Origin: Escherichia coli
GTDB taxonomy: Bacteria; Pseudomonadota; Gammaproteobacteria; Enterobacterales; Enterobacteriaceae
Reading direction: 5' to 3' (one strand)
Assembly (NCBI RefSeq): GCF_024502345.1
Contig: NZ_JALDNN010000001.1
DNA length: 64,000 bases
Position numbers and translations under genes: made by a program. Below are positions 14,121 through 35,574 of this stretch, one piece after another. How positions within the stretch are numbered: the stretch's first letter is position 1; each line of letters starts with the position of its first letter. Under the pieces are notes generated by a model. The model did no database searches. It was not told the DNA's origin and saw nothing but the letters and a program-made list of their open reading frames with translations.

Positions 14121-14196
14121 TGGCTCCTCTGACTGGACTCGAACCAGTGACATACGGATTAACAGTCCGCCGTTCTACCGACTGAACTACAGAGGA
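14121..14196 (-). tRNA. asnT: tRNA-Asn (GUU)
   Basis: Reverse complement reads TCCTCTGTAGTTCAGTCGGTAGAACGGCGGACTGTTAATCCGTATGTCACTGGTTCGAGTCCAGTCAGAGGAGCCA, the canonical E. coli tRNA-Asn. Confidence 0.95.
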
Positions 14197-15187: not shown

Positions 15188-15277
15188 GGAGAGATGCCGG
15201 AGCGGCTGAACGGACCGGTCTCGAAAACCGGAGTAGGGGCAACTCTACCGGGGGTTCAAATCCCCCTCTCTCCGCCA
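15188..15277 (+). tRNA. serU: tRNA-Ser (CGA)
   Basis: GGAGAGATGCCGGAGCGGCTGAACGGACCGGTCTCGAAAACCGGAGTAGGGGCAACTCTACCGGGGGTTCAAATCCCCCTCTCTCCGCCA: long variable arm with CGA anticodon. Confidence 0.95.
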
Positions 15278-22724: not shown

Positions 22725-24083
22725 ATGAAAAGATTATCTATAACCGTCCGTTTAACCTTGCTTTTTATATTGCTGCTGTCTGTTGCTGGCGCTGGAATTG
22801 TCTGGACTCTCTATAATGGCCTGGCAAGTGAGTTGAAATGGCGCGATGATACAACACTCATTAACCGGACAGCACAGATCAAGCAGTTGTTAATTGATGG
22901 GGTAAATCCAGATACGTTACCTGTATACTTTAACCGGATGATGGATGTTAGTCAGGATATCTTGATCATTCATGGTGATAGCATCAATAAAATTGTTAAC
23001 CGGACAAATGTCAGTGATGACATGTTAAATAACATACCTGCTAGTGAGACAATCAGCGCAGCTGGCATTTACAGAAGCATTATTAATGATACTGAGATTG
23101 ATGCTTTACGAATTAATATTGATGAAGTTTCGCCATCATTAACGGTTACTGTGGCTAAATTGGCTTCAGCCAGACATAACATGCTTGAACAGTATAAAAT
23201 TAATAGCATTGTAATTTGCATTGTCGCCATTGTACTTTGCTCAGTATTAAGTCCGCTGTTAATCAGAACGGGATTACGAGAGATCAAAAAGTTGAGTGGT
23301 GTAACGGAAGCGCTGAATTATAACGATAGCCGGGAGCCTGTTGAGGTTAGCGCATTACCGAGAGAACTAAAACCTCTTGGGCAGGCGTTGAATAAAATGC
23401 ATCAAGCCTTAGTCAAAGATTTTGAACGCCTAAGTCAATTTGCTGACGATCTCGCTCATGAACTTAGAACGCCCATTAATGCATTACTGGGTCAGAATCA
23501 GGTTACGCTCAGTCAAACCAGAAGTATCGCTGAATATCAAAAAACAATTGCCGGTAACATTGAAGAGTTGGAAAATATTTCGCGGTTAACAGAGAACATA
23601 CTGTTTCTTGCCCGGGCAGATAAAAACAATGTTTTGGTGAAACTGGACTCGCTTTCTCTCAATAAGGAAGTCGAAAATTTGTTGGATTATCTTGAATATC
23701 TTTCAGACGAGAAAGAGATTTTCTTTAAGGTCGAGTGCAATCAGCAAATCTTTGCGGATAAAATTTTACTGCAACGAATGTTATCGAATCTTATTGTTAA
23801 TGCCATTAGATATTCACCAGAAAAATCGCGTATTCATATAACCAGTTTTCTTGATACCAACGGCTATCTTAATATTGATATCGCCAGTCCTGGAACGAAA
23901 ATACATGAGCCTGAAAAACTCTTCCGTAGATTTTGGCGGGGAGATAATTCGCGTCATTCCGTAGGTCAGGGACTTGGTCTTTCTTTAGTCAAAGCGATTG
24001 CCGAATTGCATGGGGGAAGTGCTTCATATCACTATCTCAATAAGCATAATGTGTTCCGAATTACGTTACCGCAAAGAAATTAA
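22725..24083 (+). CDS. hprS: Sensor histidine kinase HprS (YedV)
   Basis: Two transmembrane segments, an H-box (ELRTPINALLG) and an ATPase G-box (GQGLGLSLVKAIAELHGG). Its ATG follows the hprR stop directly. Confidence 0.85.
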   Translation: MKRLSITVRLTLLFILLLSVAGAGIVWTLYNGLASELKWRDDTTLINRTAQIKQLLIDGVNPDTLPVYFNRMMDVSQDILIIHGDSINKIVNRTNVSDDMLNNIPASETISAAGIYRSIINDTEIDALRINIDEVSPSLTVTVAKLASARHNMLEQYKINSIVICIVAIVLCSVLSPLLIRTGLREIKKLSGVTEALNYNDSREPVEVSALPRELKPLGQALNKMHQALVKDFERLSQFADDLAHELRTPINALLGQNQVTLSQTRSIAEYQKTIAGNIEELENISRLTENILFLARADKNNVLVKLDSLSLNKEVENLLDYLEYLSDEKEIFFKVECNQQIFADKILLQRMLSNLIVNAIRYSPEKSRIHITSFLDTNGYLNIDIASPGTKIHEPEKLFRRFWRGDNSRHSVGQGLGLSLVKAIAELHGGSASYHYLNKHNVFRITLPQRN

Positions 24084-24120
24084 CATAGGGCTTCAGTACG
24101 CCATAAATTAACCGTGAAAA

Positions 24121-24157
24121 AACGCAGCCACGTCGTGAGTACTAACGCGGCTGCGAT
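24121..24157. terminator. Bidirectional intrinsic terminator between hprS and hchA
   Basis: GC-rich hairpin CGCAGCC...GGCTGCG with an A-tract on one side and a T-rich tract on the other, lying between convergent genes. Confidence 0.5.
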
Positions 24158-24190
24158 TAATTATGCGCTTACATTCAAACGTAACAGGGA

Positions 24191-25042
24191 TTAACCCGCG
24201 TAAGCTGCCAGCATTTCCTGCGCCGCCAGTTTACCCAACGCATTCGCTGCGAAAGGACTGTCGCCGGTGAGAAGTTTACGGTCCTTATGTACTCGCCCGG
24301 TGATGTCGTCATTAATGATGTTCATGCCCATTTTCTTCAGCTCTTCGCCGAAGTACCAGGTGAGATGACCTGGCATATAGCCAATATCTGGCGTTTGTTT
24401 GTCTGCGGCGTCTGGGAATGCGCAAATGGAATAACCATTCAGTGGGTTATCGCCGTGGCGAAGCGCCAGAAAAGCCGCCGGGCCGTGGCAAAGGGAGATA
24501 ACAAAACGGTCATTTTTGATTGCCCACTGTAAAGCGGCAGCTACGTCCTGGCTTTCAGGTAAACCAATAAGTGCGCCATGACCACCAGGAACAAAGATTG
24601 CTGCATATTCGCTATCAGCGTTGAGGCTGGCGACAACATCCGCGAGTTTCTTCGGATTGCGGAACAACGATTTATGCTGCTCAAAGAATGGCATTACTTT
24701 TTCATCTTTGTGCGGCATAGCCCAGTATTCAAACTTGGTCATCAGACCGGAAATGGTCGCCACTTCGAATTCGAAACCTGCAGCATGGAGATGATACAAC
24801 GGCAGCAACGTTTCAATCGGATGGTTACCGGTCGAGAACAGTTTTCCGTTATCGGTTGGCAAATAACGTTCGTCCGCGGCGATCACCAGAATTTTATGCT
24901 TACCGCGATACGGTTTTGGATAGTCCACGCCATCAAGATCAGAGACGGGACTGGTATATTGGCTAAGCGAATATTCTGAAGGGAAGAACGCATTATCTTC
25001 AGCAATATCGACCTGCGGATTTTTACTTGTTTGAACAGTCAT
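24191..25042 (-). CDS. hchA: Hsp31 glyoxalase III / protein deglycase (DJ-1/PfpI family)
   Basis: 283 aa beginning MTVQTSKNPQVDIAEDNAFFPSEYSLSQYTSPVSDLDGVDYPKPYRGKHKILVIAADERY, matching remembered HchA. Confidence 0.9.
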   Translation of the reverse strand: MTVQTSKNPQVDIAEDNAFFPSEYSLSQYTSPVSDLDGVDYPKPYRGKHKILVIAADERYLPTDNGKLFSTGNHPIETLLPLYHLHAAGFEFEVATISGLMTKFEYWAMPHKDEKVMPFFEQHKSLFRNPKKLADVVASLNADSEYAAIFVPGGHGALIGLPESQDVAAALQWAIKNDRFVISLCHGPAAFLALRHGDNPLNGYSICAFPDAADKQTPDIGYMPGHLTWYFGEELKKMGMNIINDDITGRVHKDRKLLTGDSPFAANALGKLAAQEMLAAYAG

Positions 25043-25552
25043 AGTGTATTCCTTATTGTTGCTTAGTTAGGGTAGTCACTATATTTGCGACTGAGCTGGT
25101 CGCTATTTTTAACCAGGCTGGAAAATTGAGTCAATATATCGAAAGCGGTAGTCGGCGGGTGTAAGTATGTAATGATGATGCTGCACTGGTGTTGAATATT
25201 ATTCACGCCAAATTTTCCTTATTGAGCAACGTCGTCGCAAGTGGCCTCAATGATTTTAGACCATTATCAGAGATGCGGGGCGGTGGGGAGAGATTTAGTG
25301 ATGTGGAATATTGTGGTGCTGATGAATATTTATATCGCGGATTGGTAGAGAAAAAGGTTATTTCATGCACTATTTTTGCAAAGATTTCTATTTGGGAAGC
25401 GTGTTTGTTACGGGGTAATTCATCAGAATGTGCATTTGGGGTGTTGGCTGGAAGAGTCGCTGGTAGATGTTATTGTGGCAGGAGGGGCAGGGTAAGGTGC
25501 TGTATCGATATGCTTTGGCAATTGCGTGTGCCGCAGATGGAGATGAAATGCC

Positions 25553-25592
25553 AATAAAAAAGCCTGAGTTCGATGAGGGACGAACTCAGGCT
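25553..25592 (-). terminator. Rho-independent terminator downstream of the porin gene
   Basis: Hairpin AGCCTGAGTTCG...CGAACTCAGGCT followed by a T-run on the minus strand, immediately 3' of the porin stop. Confidence 0.6.
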
Positions 25593-25634
25593 AGTGTTAT
25601 GTTTTACAGTAACACGCCGCGGCGCGTTGGCTGA

Positions 25635-26750
25635 TTAGAACTGGTAGACGATACCAACTGCAAACTGGTCATCAGCTGCTGCGCCAGTAATGGCGGCGTC
25701 ATCTTTATCCAGCATGTTGAATTTGTATGCAGTATAAACGTTCATGTTCTTATTAAAGTAGTACCAGGTACCAACTTCAATGTAGTTCACACGGTCAGCG
25801 TCAACATATCTATGTCCAGGTACCCCTTTGATATCTTTACCTTTAGAGTACACATAACCTAAGGACGGACGCAGACCAAAGTCGAATTGATACTGAACAA
25901 CCGCTTCAAAGTTCTGGGTTTCATTGATAAGTTGATCACGCATTATTGTATTGCCTTCTCGATCGGCAACACCTGTATCAATAGAACCCGGAGTCATATT
26001 ACGAGTTTCGCCGTACATTACAGCTGCGTAGACATTGTTCGCGTCATACTTTGCAGCCAATGACCACAGTTCAGCATTTGAACCGTTTCCATCGGCAACT
26101 TGATCGTTGGTGCGATCAGATTTGCTATATGCACCAACGATACCAAAACCATTGATGTTATAGTCTACAGACAACGCATAGCCGTCACCATTTTGTTTCT
26201 TAGTGCTACGGTTGCTGTTTTTGCCTTGGTACTGAATCGCAAAATCAAGACCATCAACCAGGCCAAAGAAATCATAGTTACGGTAGGTTGCAACACCGTT
26301 GGTACGACCATTCATGAAGTTGTCAGCGGAAGCCCAGGAATCGCCACCCCATTCAACTAACATATCGGTATAAGCTGCGGCATCATAAGCAACACCGTAG
26401 TTACGGCCATAGTCAAATGATCCTAACTCGTTATATTTCAAACCGGCGAAGGTTAAACGGGTTTTTTCCTGGTTTTCACCTTCGGGCTTGCTGGCGTCGA
26501 GATTGTATTCAAACTGACCAAAACCAGTCAGTTCGCTGGTGATTTGGGTTTCACCTTTAACACCGAAACGAGCATAGGAGGTATCTTCGTTTTCGCTGTT
26601 ATTATCATCAGTATTTGACCAGATGCGTTCGCCAACCATCTTGCCGTAGAAATCAACTTTATTGCCATCTTTATTGTAAATTTCAGCCGCATTTGCTGCG
26701 CCAGCAACTAATAACGCCGGGACCAGCATTGCCAGAACTTTTCTTTTCAT
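25635..26750 (-). CDS. yedS: OmpC/OmpF-family general porin (yedS-like), apparently intact
   Basis: Signal peptide [21 protein letters not shown], the [12 protein letters not shown] start typical of general porins, and a C-terminal aromatic residue (...VGIVYQF). Confidence 0.85.
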
Positions 26751-27379
26751 TATGTATTCCCTTGTGATTATAATCTTCATGAATATATCAATAAGTGCCG
26801 TTATCCAAAAAAAAGCACATTTGGATACTATTCTATGAAGTTCATTTTATTTTAAAGATTACATGTAACAAATGTATTTAAAAGATTTCAAAATGTTTCT
26901 AATCTATTTAATATAATTTAGAATTATGAATTCTAAATATAAATATTCATGAAAATTATAAATGTATATCAATATGTTATGAGTTGAGCGGAAGCATAGG
27001 GGGTATCAATGATTGTTGCGCCAAACGGCTGGTGTGATCACGCGCACATTAATGAAGGCATAAAAAAAAGCCGGCATCATGCCGGCCCAAAAAATATAAA
27101 CAAGACGATAAAAGGCTAATAACGGAGGCATCATGACACAGAAAAATAAAAAGGTATAATTGTATTCAGTGCTAATATATTGATTAAATGAATTAATAAA
27201 GCCGATCTCAAAGATAAATAAAATCGCTCAAAACGATTTTTCCTGTATTCACTGCCGTTGCGCAAAAATTATCTATTTGTTCAAAAAATGAGTGAGTCTT
27301 GACTGGCTCATCCAATGTGGAAAAATGTGACTTTTATCACATAATAGTACTAAGTCTGAATTTTCCGGGTTATCTCAAA

Positions 27380-27682
27380 ATGGAATACGGTTCGACAAAG
27401 ATGGAAGAGAGACTCTCTCGCAGCCCTGGTGGCAAACTGGCTTTGTGGGCTTTCTATACATGGTGTGGCTATTTCGTCTGGGCAATGGCGCGTTACATCT
27501 GGGTGATGAGCCGGATCCCCGATGCCCCCGTGTCGGGATTTGAAAGCGATTTAGGCTCTACCGCGGGAAAGTGGTTAGGGGCACTGGTCGGATTTTTATT
27601 TATGGCTCTGGTCGGGGCATTGTTAGGCAGCATTGCCTGGTACACCCGACCTCGTCCCGCACGTAGCAGACGCTATGAATAA
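27380..27682 (+). CDS. yedR: Small inner-membrane protein YedR
   Basis: About 100 aa with two hydrophobic segments. Position upstream of yedJ matches E. coli; the start codon is uncertain (in-frame ORF begins at 27299). Confidence 0.55.
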   Translation: MEYGSTKMEERLSRSPGGKLALWAFYTWCGYFVWAMARYIWVMSRIPDAPVSGFESDLGSTAGKWLGALVGFLFMALVGALLGSIAWYTRPRPARSRRYE

Positions 27683-27721
27683 AAACTGCTAAGGTGGCGA
27701 CTCTTTGGCAACGGAGCGCGT

Positions 27722-28417
27722 ATGGACTTACAGCACTGGCAGGCACAGTTCGAAAACTGGTTGAAAAACCATCATCAGCACCAGGACGCGGCCCATGACG
27801 TGTGTCATTTTCGCCGCGTCTGGGCTACGGCACAGAAGCTGGCGGCAGATGACGATGTCGATATGCTGGTGATTTTAACCGCCTGTTATTTTCACGATAT
27901 TGTGAGCCTGGCGAAAAATCATCCGCAAAGGCAGCGTTCTTCAATCCTGGCGGCAGAAGAGACGCGTCGCCTGCTCCGTGAAGAGTTCGAGCAATTTCCG
28001 GCGGAGAAAATCGAGGCCGTTTGTCATGCCATTGCCGCTCACAGTTTCAGCGCGCAAATCGCCCCCTTAACAACGGAAGCTAAAATTGTCCAGGATGCGG
28101 ATCGGCTGGAAGCCCTGGGGGCGATTGGCCTGGCGCGCGTGTTTGCCGTTTCAGGGGCATTGGGCGTGGCGCTGTTTGATGGTGAAGATCCGTTCGCACA
28201 GCATCGCCCGCTTGATGATAAACGCTACGCGCTGGATCATTTCAAGACTAAGTTGCTGAAGCTACCGCAAACCATGCAAACCGCAAGAGGCAAGCAGCTG
28301 GCGCAGCACAACGCGCATTTTTTAGTCGAGTTTATGGCGAAGCTCAGTGCCGAACTGGCGGGGGAGAATGAAGGTGTCGATCACAAGGTGATAGATGCGT
28401 TTTCACCCGCGGGATAA
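27722..28417 (+). CDS. yedJ: HD-domain phosphohydrolase
   Basis: 231 aa with an HD motif (FHDIV...DADRLEALG). Confidence 0.8.
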
Positions 28418-28483
28418 GCGCGTGGCCCTAAATGGCTGTAATTATGTTAACCTGTCGGCCATCTCAGATGGCCGGTTAAATCT

Positions 28484-29902
28484 ATGCAGGAAAATATATC
28501 AGTAACCGATTCATACAGCACCGGGAATGCCGCACAGGCAATGCTGGAGAAACTGCTGCAAATTTATGATGTTAAAACGCTGGTGGCGCAGCTTAATGGT
28601 GTGGGTGAGAATCACTGGAGCGCGGCAATTTTAAAACGTGCGCTGGCGAATGACTCGGCATGGCACCGTTTAAGTGAGAAAGAGTTCGCCCATCTGCAAA
28701 CGTTGTTACCCAAACCACCGGCACATCATCCGCATTATGCGTTTCGCTTTATCGATCTATTTGCCGGAATTGGCGGCATCCGTCGCGGTTTTGAATCGAT
28801 TGGCGGACAATGCGTGTTTACCAGCGAATGGAACAAACATGCGGTACGCACTTATAAAGCCAACCATTATTGCGATCCGGCGACGCATCATTTTAATGAA
28901 GATATCCGCGACATCACCCTCAGCCATAAAGAAGGCGTGAGTGATGAGGCGGCGGCGGAACATATTCGTAAACACATTCCTGAACACGATGTTTTACTGG
29001 CCGGTTTCCCTTGTCAGCCATTTTCGCTGGCTGGCGTATCGAAAAAGAACTCGCTCGGGCGGGCGCACGGTTTTGCCTGCGATACTCAGGGCACGCTGTT
29101 CTTTGATGTGGTGCGCATTATCGACGCGCGTCGTCCGGCGATGTTTGTGCTCGAAAACGTCAAAAACCTGAAAAGCCACGACCAGGGTAAAACGTTCCGC
29201 ATCATCATGCAGACGCTGGACGAACTGGGCTATGACGTGGCTGATGCAGAAGATAACGGGCCGGACGATCCGAAAATCATCGATGGTAAACATTTTCTGC
29301 CGCAGCACCGTGAACGCATCGTGCTGGTGGGTTTTCGTCGCGATCTTAATCTGAAAGCCGATTTTACTCTGCGTGATATCAGCGAATGTTTCCCTGCACA
29401 GCGAGTGACGCTGGCGCAGCTGTTGGACCCGATGGTCGAGGCGAAATATATCCTGACGCCGGTGCTGTGGAAGTACCTCTATCGATATGCGAAAAAACAT
29501 CAGGCGCGCGGTAACGGCTTCGGTTATGGAATGGTTTATCCGAACAATCCGCAAAGCGTCACGCGTACGCTGTCTGCGCGTTATTACAAAGATGGCGCGG
29601 AAATTTTAATCGATCGCGGCTGGGATATGGCCACGGGTGAGAAAGATTTTGACGATCCGCTGAATCAGCAACATCGTCCACGTCGGTTAACGCCTCGGGA
29701 ATGCGCGCGCTTAATGGGTTTTGAAGCGCCGGGAGAAGCGAAATTCCGCATTCCGGTTTCGGACACTCAGGCCTATCGCCAGTTCGGTAACTCGGTGGTC
29801 GTGCCGGTCTTTGCCGCGGTGGCAAAACTGCTTGAGCCAAAAATCAAACAGGCGGTGGCGTTGCGTCAGCAAGAGGCACAACATGGCCGACGTTCACGAT
29901 AA
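28484..29902 (+). CDS. dcm: DNA-cytosine methyltransferase (CCWGG)
   Basis: C5-MTase motifs FAGIGG (motif I), GFPCQPFS (motif IV with catalytic Cys) and ENV. 472 aa as in E. coli Dcm. Confidence 0.95.
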
Positions 29903-30353
29903 GGCCACTCGCAGCAAAAATATGCGCGCGATTGCCACGCGTGATACGGCGATTGAGAAGCGCCTCGCCAGTCTGTTAACCGGGCAGGGCCTGGCGTTTC
30001 GCGTTCAGGACGCCAGTCTGCCCGGTCGCCCGGATTTTGTCGTTGATGAATATCGTTGCGTGATATTTACCCACGGCTGCTTCTGGCACCATCATCACTG
30101 CTATCTGTTTAAAGTGCCTGCGACTCGAACCGAGTTCTGGCTGGAGAAGATAGGTAAAAATGTTGAACGCGATCGCCGCGATATCAGTCGTTTGCAGGAA
30201 CTCGGCTGGCGCGTACTGATTGTCTGGGAGTGTGCATTACGTGGGCGCGAGAAGCTGACGGATGAAGCGCTTACCGAGCGTCTGGAAGAGTGGATCTGCG
30301 GCGAAGGTGCCAGCGCGCAGATCGACACGCAGGGGATTCATTTACTCGCTTGA
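29883..30353 (+). CDS. vsr: Very-short-patch repair endonuclease
   Basis: Begins [28 protein letters not shown]. The start overlaps the dcm 3' end by 20 nt in another frame, the known dcm-vsr arrangement. Confidence 0.9.
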
Positions 30354-35487: not shown

Positions 35488-35574
35488 AACACATCAGATT
35501 TCCTGGTGTAACGAATTTTTTAAGTGCTTCTTGCTTAAGCAAGTTTCATCCCGACCCCCTCAGGGTCGGGATTT
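35488..35574 (+). ncRNA. dsrA: DsrA small regulatory RNA (Hfq-dependent; activates rpoS translation, represses hns)
   Basis: AACACATCAGATTTCCTGGTGTAACGAATTTTTTAAGTGCTTCTTGCTTAAGCAAGTTTCATCCCGACCCCCTCAGGGTCGGGATTT matches the remembered DsrA sequence, including the terminator hairpin and U-tract. Confidence 0.9.

What the first reader, a model, noticed from the sequence alone, without database searches (positions are those of the whole stretch)
27061..27095. Orphan minus-strand intrinsic terminator in the AT-rich region between the porin gene and yedR
AAAAAAAAGCCGGCATCATGCCGGCCCAAAAAA forms a perfect GC hairpin that, read on the minus strand, is followed by a T8 run. No annotated minus-strand gene lies immediately upstream of it; yedR and yedJ are on the plus strand. 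It may terminate an unannotated small transcript originating in 27100-27300, or insulate the porin promoter from read-through.
Basis: seen in the sequence. Interest (0 to 1): 0.3.

Follow-up and report, generated by a model that had tools for sequence, protein, structure and literature searches.

The report
Terminator of the known RseX sRNA
The hairpin is real, but it is not an orphan: it is the transcription terminator of RseX, a 91-nucleotide regulatory RNA of E. coli described in the literature since 2002-2006, so the finding is ordinary.

Summary
At 27070-27086 there is a perfect GC-rich palindrome (GCCGGCAT/ATGCCGGC). On the minus strand it is followed by eight U (27069-27062). It folds at -14.6 kcal/mol (z about -3.4).

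It is not an orphan. It is the 3' end of the rseX gene, at window 27152..27062 on the minus strand. Rfam RF01401 matches 27063-27152(-) at 96.7 bits, against a gathering score of 50. The MG1655 record annotates rseX (b4603, 91 nt) in the same place, between drpB (yedR) and yedS, and the window copy matches it at 89 of 91 bases, with an identical terminator.

"Unannotated" holds only for automatic (PGAP) RefSeq annotations, which list nothing there.

RseX binds Hfq. When over-expressed it represses ompA, ompC, fimB, ihfB and fepA. H-NS silences it in wild-type cells, so ordinary term-seq would probably show no 3' end here, and that would not refute the terminator. A 2024 paper reports that the loop of this same terminator is needed for fepA repression.

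Novelty: already known. Interest: low.

The parts
27062..27152 (-). rseX gene: the 91-nt Hfq-binding small RNA RseX
   Evidence: Rfam RF01401 matches 27063-27152(-) at 96.7 bits (gathering score 50), E 4.6e-13, over the full model 1-94. Alignment to MG1655 rseX b4603 (2033649-2033739) gives these ends, with 89/91 identity.
27068..27088 (-). Terminator stem-loop. The core is a perfect stem, 27070-27076 paired with 27080-27086, with loop UGA at 27079-27077. Two G-U pairs extend it.
   Evidence: It is identical in K-12. The core stem, the loop and the G88-U68 wobble pair do not vary in 7 Escherichia sequences; the other wobble position, G87, is A in E. coli E69.
27062..27069 (-). U8 tail of the terminator, which is the 3' end of RseX. 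By established knowledge of Hfq-dependent sRNAs it is the expected site for the proximal face of Hfq.
   Evidence: Read from the sequence. The tail is T7-T8 in all 7 Escherichia sequences. The Hfq role is inferred, with support from the discussion in PMC11979758.
27089..27114 (-). Unstructured U/AU-rich linker, RseX nt 39-64 (CUUUUAUCGUCUUGUUUAUAUUUUUU).
   Evidence: Unpaired in the minimum-free-energy fold and in the Rfam consensus structure. Nearly invariant across Escherichia. Any function in pairing or Hfq binding is inferred.
27115..27139 (-). 5' stem-loop of RseX (nt 14-38). The loop reads CCUC(C) here and CUUC(C) in K-12.
   Evidence: Fold and Rfam structure line. The loop is the most variable part of the RNA among Escherichia.
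27159..27164 (-). -10 hexamer TACAAT of the rseX promoter, at -12 to -7 relative to the K-12 5' end.
   Evidence: Read from the sequence. Its position follows from the annotated 5' end. The 5' end was mapped by 5' RACE and a sigma-70 promoter was reported, as cited in PMC8313858. The hexamer is TACAAT, TAAAAT, TTCAAT or TACCAT in other Escherichia.
27182..27187 (-). Weak -35-like hexamer TTAATC with a 17-nt spacer (inferred).
   Evidence: Sequence only. It matches 3 of 6 positions, which is why the promoter scan did not list it. It overlaps the H-NS motif reported at -42 to -32 (PMC8313858).
25635..26750 (-). Flanking gene: yedS-type porin, intact here (371 aa from MKRKVLAML). It lies downstream of rseX on the same strand.
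   Evidence: ORF list. Annotated 'porin' or 'ompC' in RefSeq relatives. It is a pseudogene in MG1655.
27380..27682 (+). Flanking gene: drpB (yedR), divergent from rseX.
   Evidence: The 100-aa form starting at ATG-22 is from PMC7648144.

Best explanation
The hairpin plus U8 run is the Rho-independent terminator, and so the 3' end, of rseX, a stand-alone sRNA gene at 27152..27062 on the minus strand. Transcription starts at a sigma-70-type promoter (-10 TACAAT at 27164-27159). It runs 91 nt through a 5' stem-loop and a U-rich linker. It stops when the GC stem forms ahead of the U tract. The hairpin and U tail then stay on the RNA as its Hfq-binding and stabilising 3' module. From K-12 experiments: RseX binds Hfq; when over-expressed it represses ompA, ompC, fimB and ihfB; and it represses fepA through its 3' 40 nt, where the exposed loop nucleotides of this terminator are required. 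In wild-type cells the AT-rich locus is silenced by H-NS (with StpA as back-up). Shown here: the identity, ends, structure and conservation of the element. Taken from the literature: expression, Hfq dependence and targets. Inferred: that this strain's copy, which differs at 2 of 91 positions, behaves the same way.
For: The Rfam rseX model matches over its full length, 96.7 bits against a gathering score of 50. The MG1655 record annotates the ncRNA rseX (b4603) between drpB and yedS, in the same order and orientation as here. Pairwise alignment gives 89/91 identity, with an identical terminator and identical nt 52-91. The hairpin is stable (-14.6 kcal/mol, z -3.4) and is one of only two strict terminators in 64 kb; the other belongs to the sRNA DsrA. 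The 91 nt are present in 4876 of 5426 complete E. coli genomes. In other Escherichia species the transcribed part is far better conserved than the DNA upstream of the promoter, and the core terminator stem and loop do not vary. Literature: a 91-nt RNA that lowers OmpA and OmpC (PMC7648144). The 5' end was mapped, a sigma-70 promoter and a Rho-independent terminator were recognised, a product of about 91 nt appears on Northern blots only in hns mutants, and fimB and ihfB are targets (PMC8313858). RseX+52 (window 27101..27062) represses fepA 23-fold, and terminator-loop mutations abolish this (PMC11979758).
Against: There are no expression data for this strain. Native RseX has never been detected in wild-type K-12, so the physiological role is uncertain. 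The terminator stem never varies among the sequences compared, so covariation gives no independent support for the structure. The whole-RNA fold is not significantly more stable than shuffles (z -1.46); only the terminator is. The -35 element is poor (3 of 6).
Confidence: 0.95

Rival explanations
1. The hairpin is mainly an insulator for the porin gene. It exists to stop minus-strand transcription from the drpB/rseX side entering the yedS promoter region, and the short RNA it releases is incidental.
For: The terminator is co-oriented with yedS and lies 311 nt upstream of its start codon. Both lie in one AT-rich block of 20-37% GC. Native RseX is undetectable in wild-type cells.
Against: The 91 nt upstream of the U tail are conserved much better than the neighbouring intergenic DNA across Escherichia species. 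The RNA has documented trans-acting activities that depend on its sequence and on Hfq. rseX is retained in K-12, where yedS is a pseudogene. Insulation is better seen as a side effect than as an alternative.
Confidence: 0.03
2. The transcript is a small mRNA. The ORF that starts at AUG19 of RseX (27134, minus strand; 42 aa, MMPPLLAFYRLVYIFWAG...) encodes a hydrophobic micro-protein, and the hairpin lies inside the coding sequence.
For: The ORF 27006..27134(-), 42 aa, appears and its product looks hydrophobic.
Against: There is no Shine-Dalgarno sequence upstream; the 18-nt leader is U-rich. The ORF runs through the terminator, so the 91-nt RNA would have no stop codon. A 1-nt indel in the U-run shifts the frame, so that four of seven Escherichia sequences stop after 18 codons inside the terminator loop. 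The ORF is therefore not conserved.
Confidence: 0.01
3. The palindrome is a chance occurrence or a repeat-element remnant with no terminator function.
For: The loose terminator scan finds 15 sites in 6 kb against 7.1 expected, so such patterns are common.
Against: Under strict criteria there were 0 hits in 100 shuffled windows against 2 observed. The core stem and loop are invariant across Escherichia. It sits exactly at the 3' end of a curated sRNA family. The product of about 91 nt seen on Northern blots fits termination here.
Confidence: 0.01

Closest known systems
RseX sRNA of E. coli K-12 (rseX, b4603; Rfam RF01401)
   Same: It has the same locus (drpB - rseX - yedS), the same orientation, the same 91-nt length and 89/91 identical bases. 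The terminator and the 3' 40 nt are identical.
   Different: There are two substitutions: nt 9 A to U, and nt 26 U to C. The second turns the 5' stem-loop's loop from CUUCC into CCUCC, a perfect anti-Shine-Dalgarno pentamer. The neighbouring yedS porin gene is intact here but is a pseudogene in K-12. The exact 91-nt allele, or one identical over 90 nt, is in 851 of 4876 E. coli genomes that carry rseX.
Terminators of SdsR and ArrS (sRNAs whose terminator loops act in fepA repression)
   Same: Each is a Rho-independent terminator that doubles as a regulatory module. According to PMC11979758, loop nucleotides of the RseX, SdsR and ArrS terminators are each required for Hfq- and RNase E-dependent repression of fepA.
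   Different: They are unrelated in sequence. The mechanism is unknown and apparently does not involve direct pairing with fepA. It was shown only with over-expressed RNAs in K-12.
Other Hfq-dependent sRNAs that regulate outer-membrane proteins (MicA, RybB, MicC, MicF, OmrA/B)
   Same: They are short, stand-alone genes with their own promoter and an intrinsic terminator with a U tail, they depend on Hfq, and they repress omp mRNAs (from the literature cited).
   Different: RseX is not under sigma-E or OmpR control and is silenced by H-NS. In an exact-pattern scan it was found only in the genus Escherichia. It has no sequence similarity to these sRNAs. The weak Rfam RyhB hit (23.1 bits against a gathering score of 55) covers only the generic terminator.
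DsrA terminator in the same window (35549-35571, +)
   Same: It is the only other site in the 64 kb that passes the strict terminator definition, and it is also the 3' end of an Hfq-binding sRNA.
   Different: It is a different RNA family (RF00014), on the other strand, with an unrelated sequence.

Membership tests
RseX sRNA (Rfam RF01401 / E. coli rseX b4603) | The sequence-plus-structure match to the curated covariance model reaches the gathering score. | tested here: met
   96.7 bits against 50, E 4.6e-13, model positions 1-94 of 94, not truncated.
RseX sRNA (Rfam RF01401 / E. coli rseX b4603) | Near-identity to the experimentally defined 91-nt K-12 RNA, with the same 5' and 3' ends. | tested here: met
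   89/91 identical, with the ends at 27152 and 27062.
RseX sRNA (Rfam RF01401 / E. coli rseX b4603) | Synteny: located between drpB (yedR) and yedS, divergent from drpB and co-oriented with yedS. | tested here: met
   The order hchA - yedS - rseX - drpB - yedJ - dcm - vsr is the same as in MG1655.
RseX sRNA (Rfam RF01401 / E. coli rseX b4603) | Own sigma-70 promoter at the mapped 5' end. | tested here: inconclusive
   The -10 hexamer TACAAT is correctly placed, but the -35 is weak (TTAATC) and the scan does not list the site. Promoter activity cannot be tested here. 5' RACE support is cited in PMC8313858.
RseX sRNA (Rfam RF01401 / E. coli rseX b4603) | Hfq binding, and repression of ompA and ompC (also fimB, ihfB, fepA). 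| not testable with these tools
   Literature on K-12 only. A crude duplex calculation gave only weak signals for ompA and ompC (z -1.3 to -1.9 and -0.5 to -1.4).
Rho-independent (intrinsic) terminator | A GC-rich stem with a short loop, immediately followed by a U tract on the transcribed strand. | tested here: met
   A 7-bp perfect stem (6 G-C) plus two G-U pairs, a 3-nt loop and U8, at -14.6 kcal/mol.
Rho-independent (intrinsic) terminator | A transcript actually ends in the U tract. | not testable with these tools
   Indirect only. The 91-nt annotation in MG1655 ends at the last U, and a band of about 91 nt is seen in hns mutants (PMC8313858).

The most novel reading that the evidence does not exclude
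In strains like this one, where the neighbouring yedS porin gene is intact, rseX and yedS may form one H-NS-silenced module. The efficiency of this terminator would then set how much rseX transcription reads into yedS. Alternatively, the strain-specific CCUCC (anti-Shine-Dalgarno) loop allele may change the set of RseX targets. Neither idea has been examined in the papers I found, and neither is excluded by my data.
Probability: 0.08. Interest if true: 0.35.

Novelty: already known. Interest (0 to 1): 0.08.

Why it matters
It matters little as a discovery. The element is the terminator of a published sRNA. Three practical points follow.

1. Automatic RefSeq (PGAP) annotation leaves rseX out of nearly all E. 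coli genomes, so a sequence-only reader will keep finding it as an "orphan".
2. Because H-NS silences the gene, standard 3'-end mapping in wild-type cells would probably find nothing. That result would wrongly suggest the terminator is inactive.
3. This hairpin has recently been shown to be more than a stop signal. Its loop is required for repression of the iron-enterobactin receptor gene fepA by an unknown mechanism. Its core stem and loop do not vary across the Escherichia sequences compared, which is consistent with that role but does not prove it.

Tried and rejected
1. Bidirectional terminator. The plus strand has no T run after the hairpin, so this is rejected.

2. RyhB relative. Rfam gives 23.1 bits against a gathering score of 55, covering only the generic terminator. 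Rejected.

3. Small protein from the 42-aa minus-strand ORF (27134..27006). There is no Shine-Dalgarno sequence, there is no stop codon within the RNA, and the frame is not conserved among Escherichia. Rejected. The plus-strand GGAGG (27124-27128) followed by an 8-codon ORF (ATG at 27133) is simply the complement of the RseX CCUCC loop. I did not pursue it.

4. [quoted passage not shown] RNAduplex energies are no better than for shuffled RseX (z +0.3 for the window allele, +0.55 for the K-12 allele). The method is crude: it produces long AU-rich duplexes and uses no accessibility term. This is therefore weak negative evidence.

5. Covariation support for the terminator stem. This is not possible, because the stem is essentially invariant in all sequences obtained.

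6. Wider taxonomic distribution. One exact-pattern scan of 100,044 species genomes found only Escherichia: E. coli, E. whittamii and two unnamed Escherichia species. The pattern had to match exactly, so diverged homologues, such as the Citrobacter ones mentioned in PMC8313858, would be missed.

7. The primary paper (Douchin et al. 2006, J Biol Chem) is not in the searchable library. Its results are quoted through papers that cite it.

Full report
**The observation**

It consists of A8 (27062-27069), then GCCGGCAT (27070-77), C, and ATGCCGGC (27079-86), then CC and A6. The inverted-repeat finder reports the two 8-nt arms as 100% complementary with 1 nt between them (pair I6).

The terminator scan lists the site on the minus strand as 27088..27068, with 9 pairs (6 G-C), a 3-nt loop and the tail TTTTTTAT. 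As RNA, the minus strand folds into GGGCCGGCA-UGA-UGCCGGCUU followed by further U residues. The energy is -14.6 kcal/mol, against -6.7 +/- 2.3 for dinucleotide shuffles (z -3.4).

The loose scan finds terminator-like sites at only about twice the chance rate: 15 observed against 7.1 expected in 6 kb. That scan alone therefore proves little. I wrote a stricter test: a perfect stem of at least 7 bp with at least 5 G/C, a loop of 3-6 nt, and T7 within 1 nt of the stem. Two sites in the whole 64-kb window pass, and none passed in 100 locally shuffled windows. One is this site. The other is the terminator of the sRNA DsrA at 35549-35571.

The plus strand has no T run after the hairpin, so the element works in one direction only.

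**What it is**

A scan of 24000-30000 against all Rfam families gave one strong hit. This was rseX (RF01401, "rseX Hfq binding RNA") at 27063-27152 on the minus strand, with 96.7 bits against a gathering score of 50, E 4.6e-13, and full model coverage. The hit was reproduced on the whole window. The hairpin and U run occupy the last 26 model positions.

A megablast of 26700-27400 against complete E. coli genomes shows that the window is E. coli chromosome. The query is 99.9% identical to many strains and is present in 4909 of 5426 genomes.

The MG1655 record annotates an ncRNA at the corresponding place: rseX, b4603, "small regulatory RNA RseX", 2033649-2033739. It lies between drpB (formerly yedR) and the yedS pseudogene. 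The gene order in the window is hprS, hchA, porin (yedS), rseX, drpB, yedJ, dcm, vsr, which is the MG1655 order read in the opposite direction.

Aligning the window's minus strand to MG1655 places RseX at 27152..27062, 91 nt. It differs at two positions: nt 9 A to U, and nt 26 U to C. From nt 27 to the 3' end the two are identical, terminator included.

PGAP-annotated RefSeq genomes carry no feature here. The closest relative (strain H2) lists only porin and drpB around the site. All twelve sampled genomes in the 91-nt search have "none" under the match. The hand-curated K-12 record and Rfam both have it.

**Anatomy on the minus strand**

- **-35-like hexamer:** TTAATC at 27187-27182. It matches 3 of 6 positions and is inferred.
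- **-10 hexamer:** TACAAT at 27164-27159, after a 17-nt spacer. It ends 7 nt before the 5' end.
- **5' end (+1):** 27152.
- **U-rich leader:** nt 1-13.
- **5' stem-loop:** nt 14-38 (27139-27115). The loop reads CCUC followed by C, where K-12 has CUUC followed by C.
- **Linker:** nt 39-64 (27114-27089), unpaired and U/AU-rich.
- **Terminator stem-loop:** 27088-27068.
- **U8 tail:** 27069-27062.

The full 91-nt fold is not significantly more stable than shuffles (z -1.46). The terminator accounts for most of the stability.

**Conservation**

The 91 nt are found in 4876 of 5426 complete E. coli genomes. In 851 of them the match is at least 99% identical.

An exact-pattern scan of one genome per species (100,044 species), using a conserved 23-mer from the linker, returned only Escherichia: E. 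coli, E. whittamii and two unnamed Escherichia species. In an alignment of these sequences with the window and K-12:

- The DNA upstream of about -25 diverges strongly.
- The transcribed part is nearly invariant except for the 5' loop.
- The core terminator (GCCGGCAUGAUGCCGGC plus U7-U8) is identical in all seven.

Because the stem never varies, there is no covariation evidence either for or against it.

**How it works (literature, K-12)**

PMC8313858 summarises the history and adds new data:

- The RNA was predicted in 2002 from its sigma-70 promoter and Rho-independent terminator.
- The 5' end was mapped by RACE.
- The native RNA was never detected in wild-type cells.
- A band of about 91 nt, plus a shorter form of about 75 nt, appears in hns mutants.
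- RNA-seq shows a stronger increase in hns stpA double mutants.
- An H-NS motif lies at -42 to -32.
- fimB and ihfB are direct targets.

The low GC content of the intergenic block, 20-37% over 26700-27400, fits H-NS silencing.

PMC11979758 bears directly on the finding. RseX represses fepA. A truncated RNA, RseX+52, consists of nt 52-91 (window 27101..27062), which is the terminator plus the U-rich stretch before it. It represses fepA 23-fold. Mutating the exposed terminator-loop nucleotides abolishes the effect without lowering RNA levels. Regulation needs Hfq and RNase E, and there is no evidence of direct pairing with fepA.

"Terminates a small transcript originating in 27100-27300" is right: the start is at 27152.

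"Unannotated" and "orphan" are wrong with respect to the reference annotation and Rfam.

"Insulates the porin promoter" fits the geometry. The terminator is co-oriented with yedS and lies 311 nt upstream of its ATG at 26750. This is a side effect of ending rseX and was not tested. rseX is also kept in K-12, where yedS is a pseudogene.

The suggested refutation, no minus-strand 3' ends at about 27060-27070, would probably be met in wild-type cells simply because H-NS silences the gene. It is not a valid refutation unless the experiment is done in an hns background.

**Alternatives considered**

A 42-aa ORF starts at AUG19 of RseX (27134..27006). It has no Shine-Dalgarno sequence and runs through the terminator. 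A 1-nt indel breaks its frame in four of seven Escherichia sequences, which stop after 18 codons. It is very unlikely to be coding.

A weak Rfam RyhB match (23.1 bits against 55) reflects only a generic terminator.

I tested whether RseX might pair with the translation-initiation region of its neighbour yedS. Duplex energies were no better than for shuffled RseX (z +0.3 and +0.55). The known targets ompA and ompC gave only mild signals (z -1.9 to -0.5). The method is crude, so this is weak negative evidence.

**Verdict**

The feature is real, correctly described, and already known. It is the intrinsic terminator of the Hfq-binding sRNA RseX, in a strain whose allele differs from K-12 at two positions outside the terminator. 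Novelty: already known. Interest: low.

The most novel reading left open is a functional link between rseX, its terminator and the intact neighbouring porin gene, or an altered target range for the CCUCC loop allele. I give this less than 10% probability.

Noticed in passing
window 27133-27160 (+): This is the best sigma-70-like site in the 6-kb scan: ATGACA, a 16-nt spacer, then TATAAT (11 of 12 matches). It lies on the plus strand, inside and antisense to the 5' end of rseX. Its -10 (27155-27160) overlaps the rseX -10 (27159-27164, minus strand) by 2 bp, so the two would fire back to back, with starts about 15 bp apart. Both hexamers are invariant in 7 Escherichia sequences, though that may simply reflect RseX conservation. 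It is not the mapped drpB promoter, which lies between GTG-1 (27318) and ATG-22 (27380) (PMC7648144). Whether it drives a plus-strand transcript is unknown.
   Followed up: partly
window 25635-26750 (-): The yedS-type porin gene next to rseX is an intact 371-codon ORF here, whereas MG1655 annotates yedS as a pseudogene. PGAP names it 'porin' or 'ompC' in related strains.
   Followed up: partly
window 27128-27124 (-) = RseX nt 25-29: The U26-to-C substitution relative to K-12 makes the 5' loop read CCUCC, a perfect complement of a GGAGG Shine-Dalgarno sequence (K-12 has CUUCC). The loop is the most variable part of RseX among Escherichia. In 851 of 4876 E. coli genomes with rseX, the match to this 91-nt allele is at least 99% identical.
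   Followed up: partly
window 26916-26938: A perfect 10-bp inverted repeat, ATTTAGAATT-atg-AATTCTAAAT, lies in the 20%-GC region upstream of yedS. Other AT-rich palindromes are nearby (26942-26957; 26802-26827). They may be a regulator-binding site for the porin promoter, or just a consequence of AT richness.
   Followed up: no
window 25561-25592: A 12-bp-stem hairpin sits just downstream of the yedS stop codon. On the minus strand it is followed by TTTTTATTGG, so it is probably the yedS terminator. It lies in the gap between yedS and the divergent hchA.
   Followed up: no
window 35488-35574 (+); 14124-14196 (-); 15188-15274 (+): Other RNA genes in the window are the sRNA DsrA (RF00014, 102.5 bits) and two tRNA genes.
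   Followed up: no
RefSeq E. coli genomes (e.g. L001 = NZ_CP028733.1 1977267-1982968): PGAP annotation omits rseX. No feature is listed under the 91-nt match in any of the 12 sampled genomes or in strain H2. About 550 of 5426 complete genomes give no megablast match to rseX at all.
   Followed up: partly
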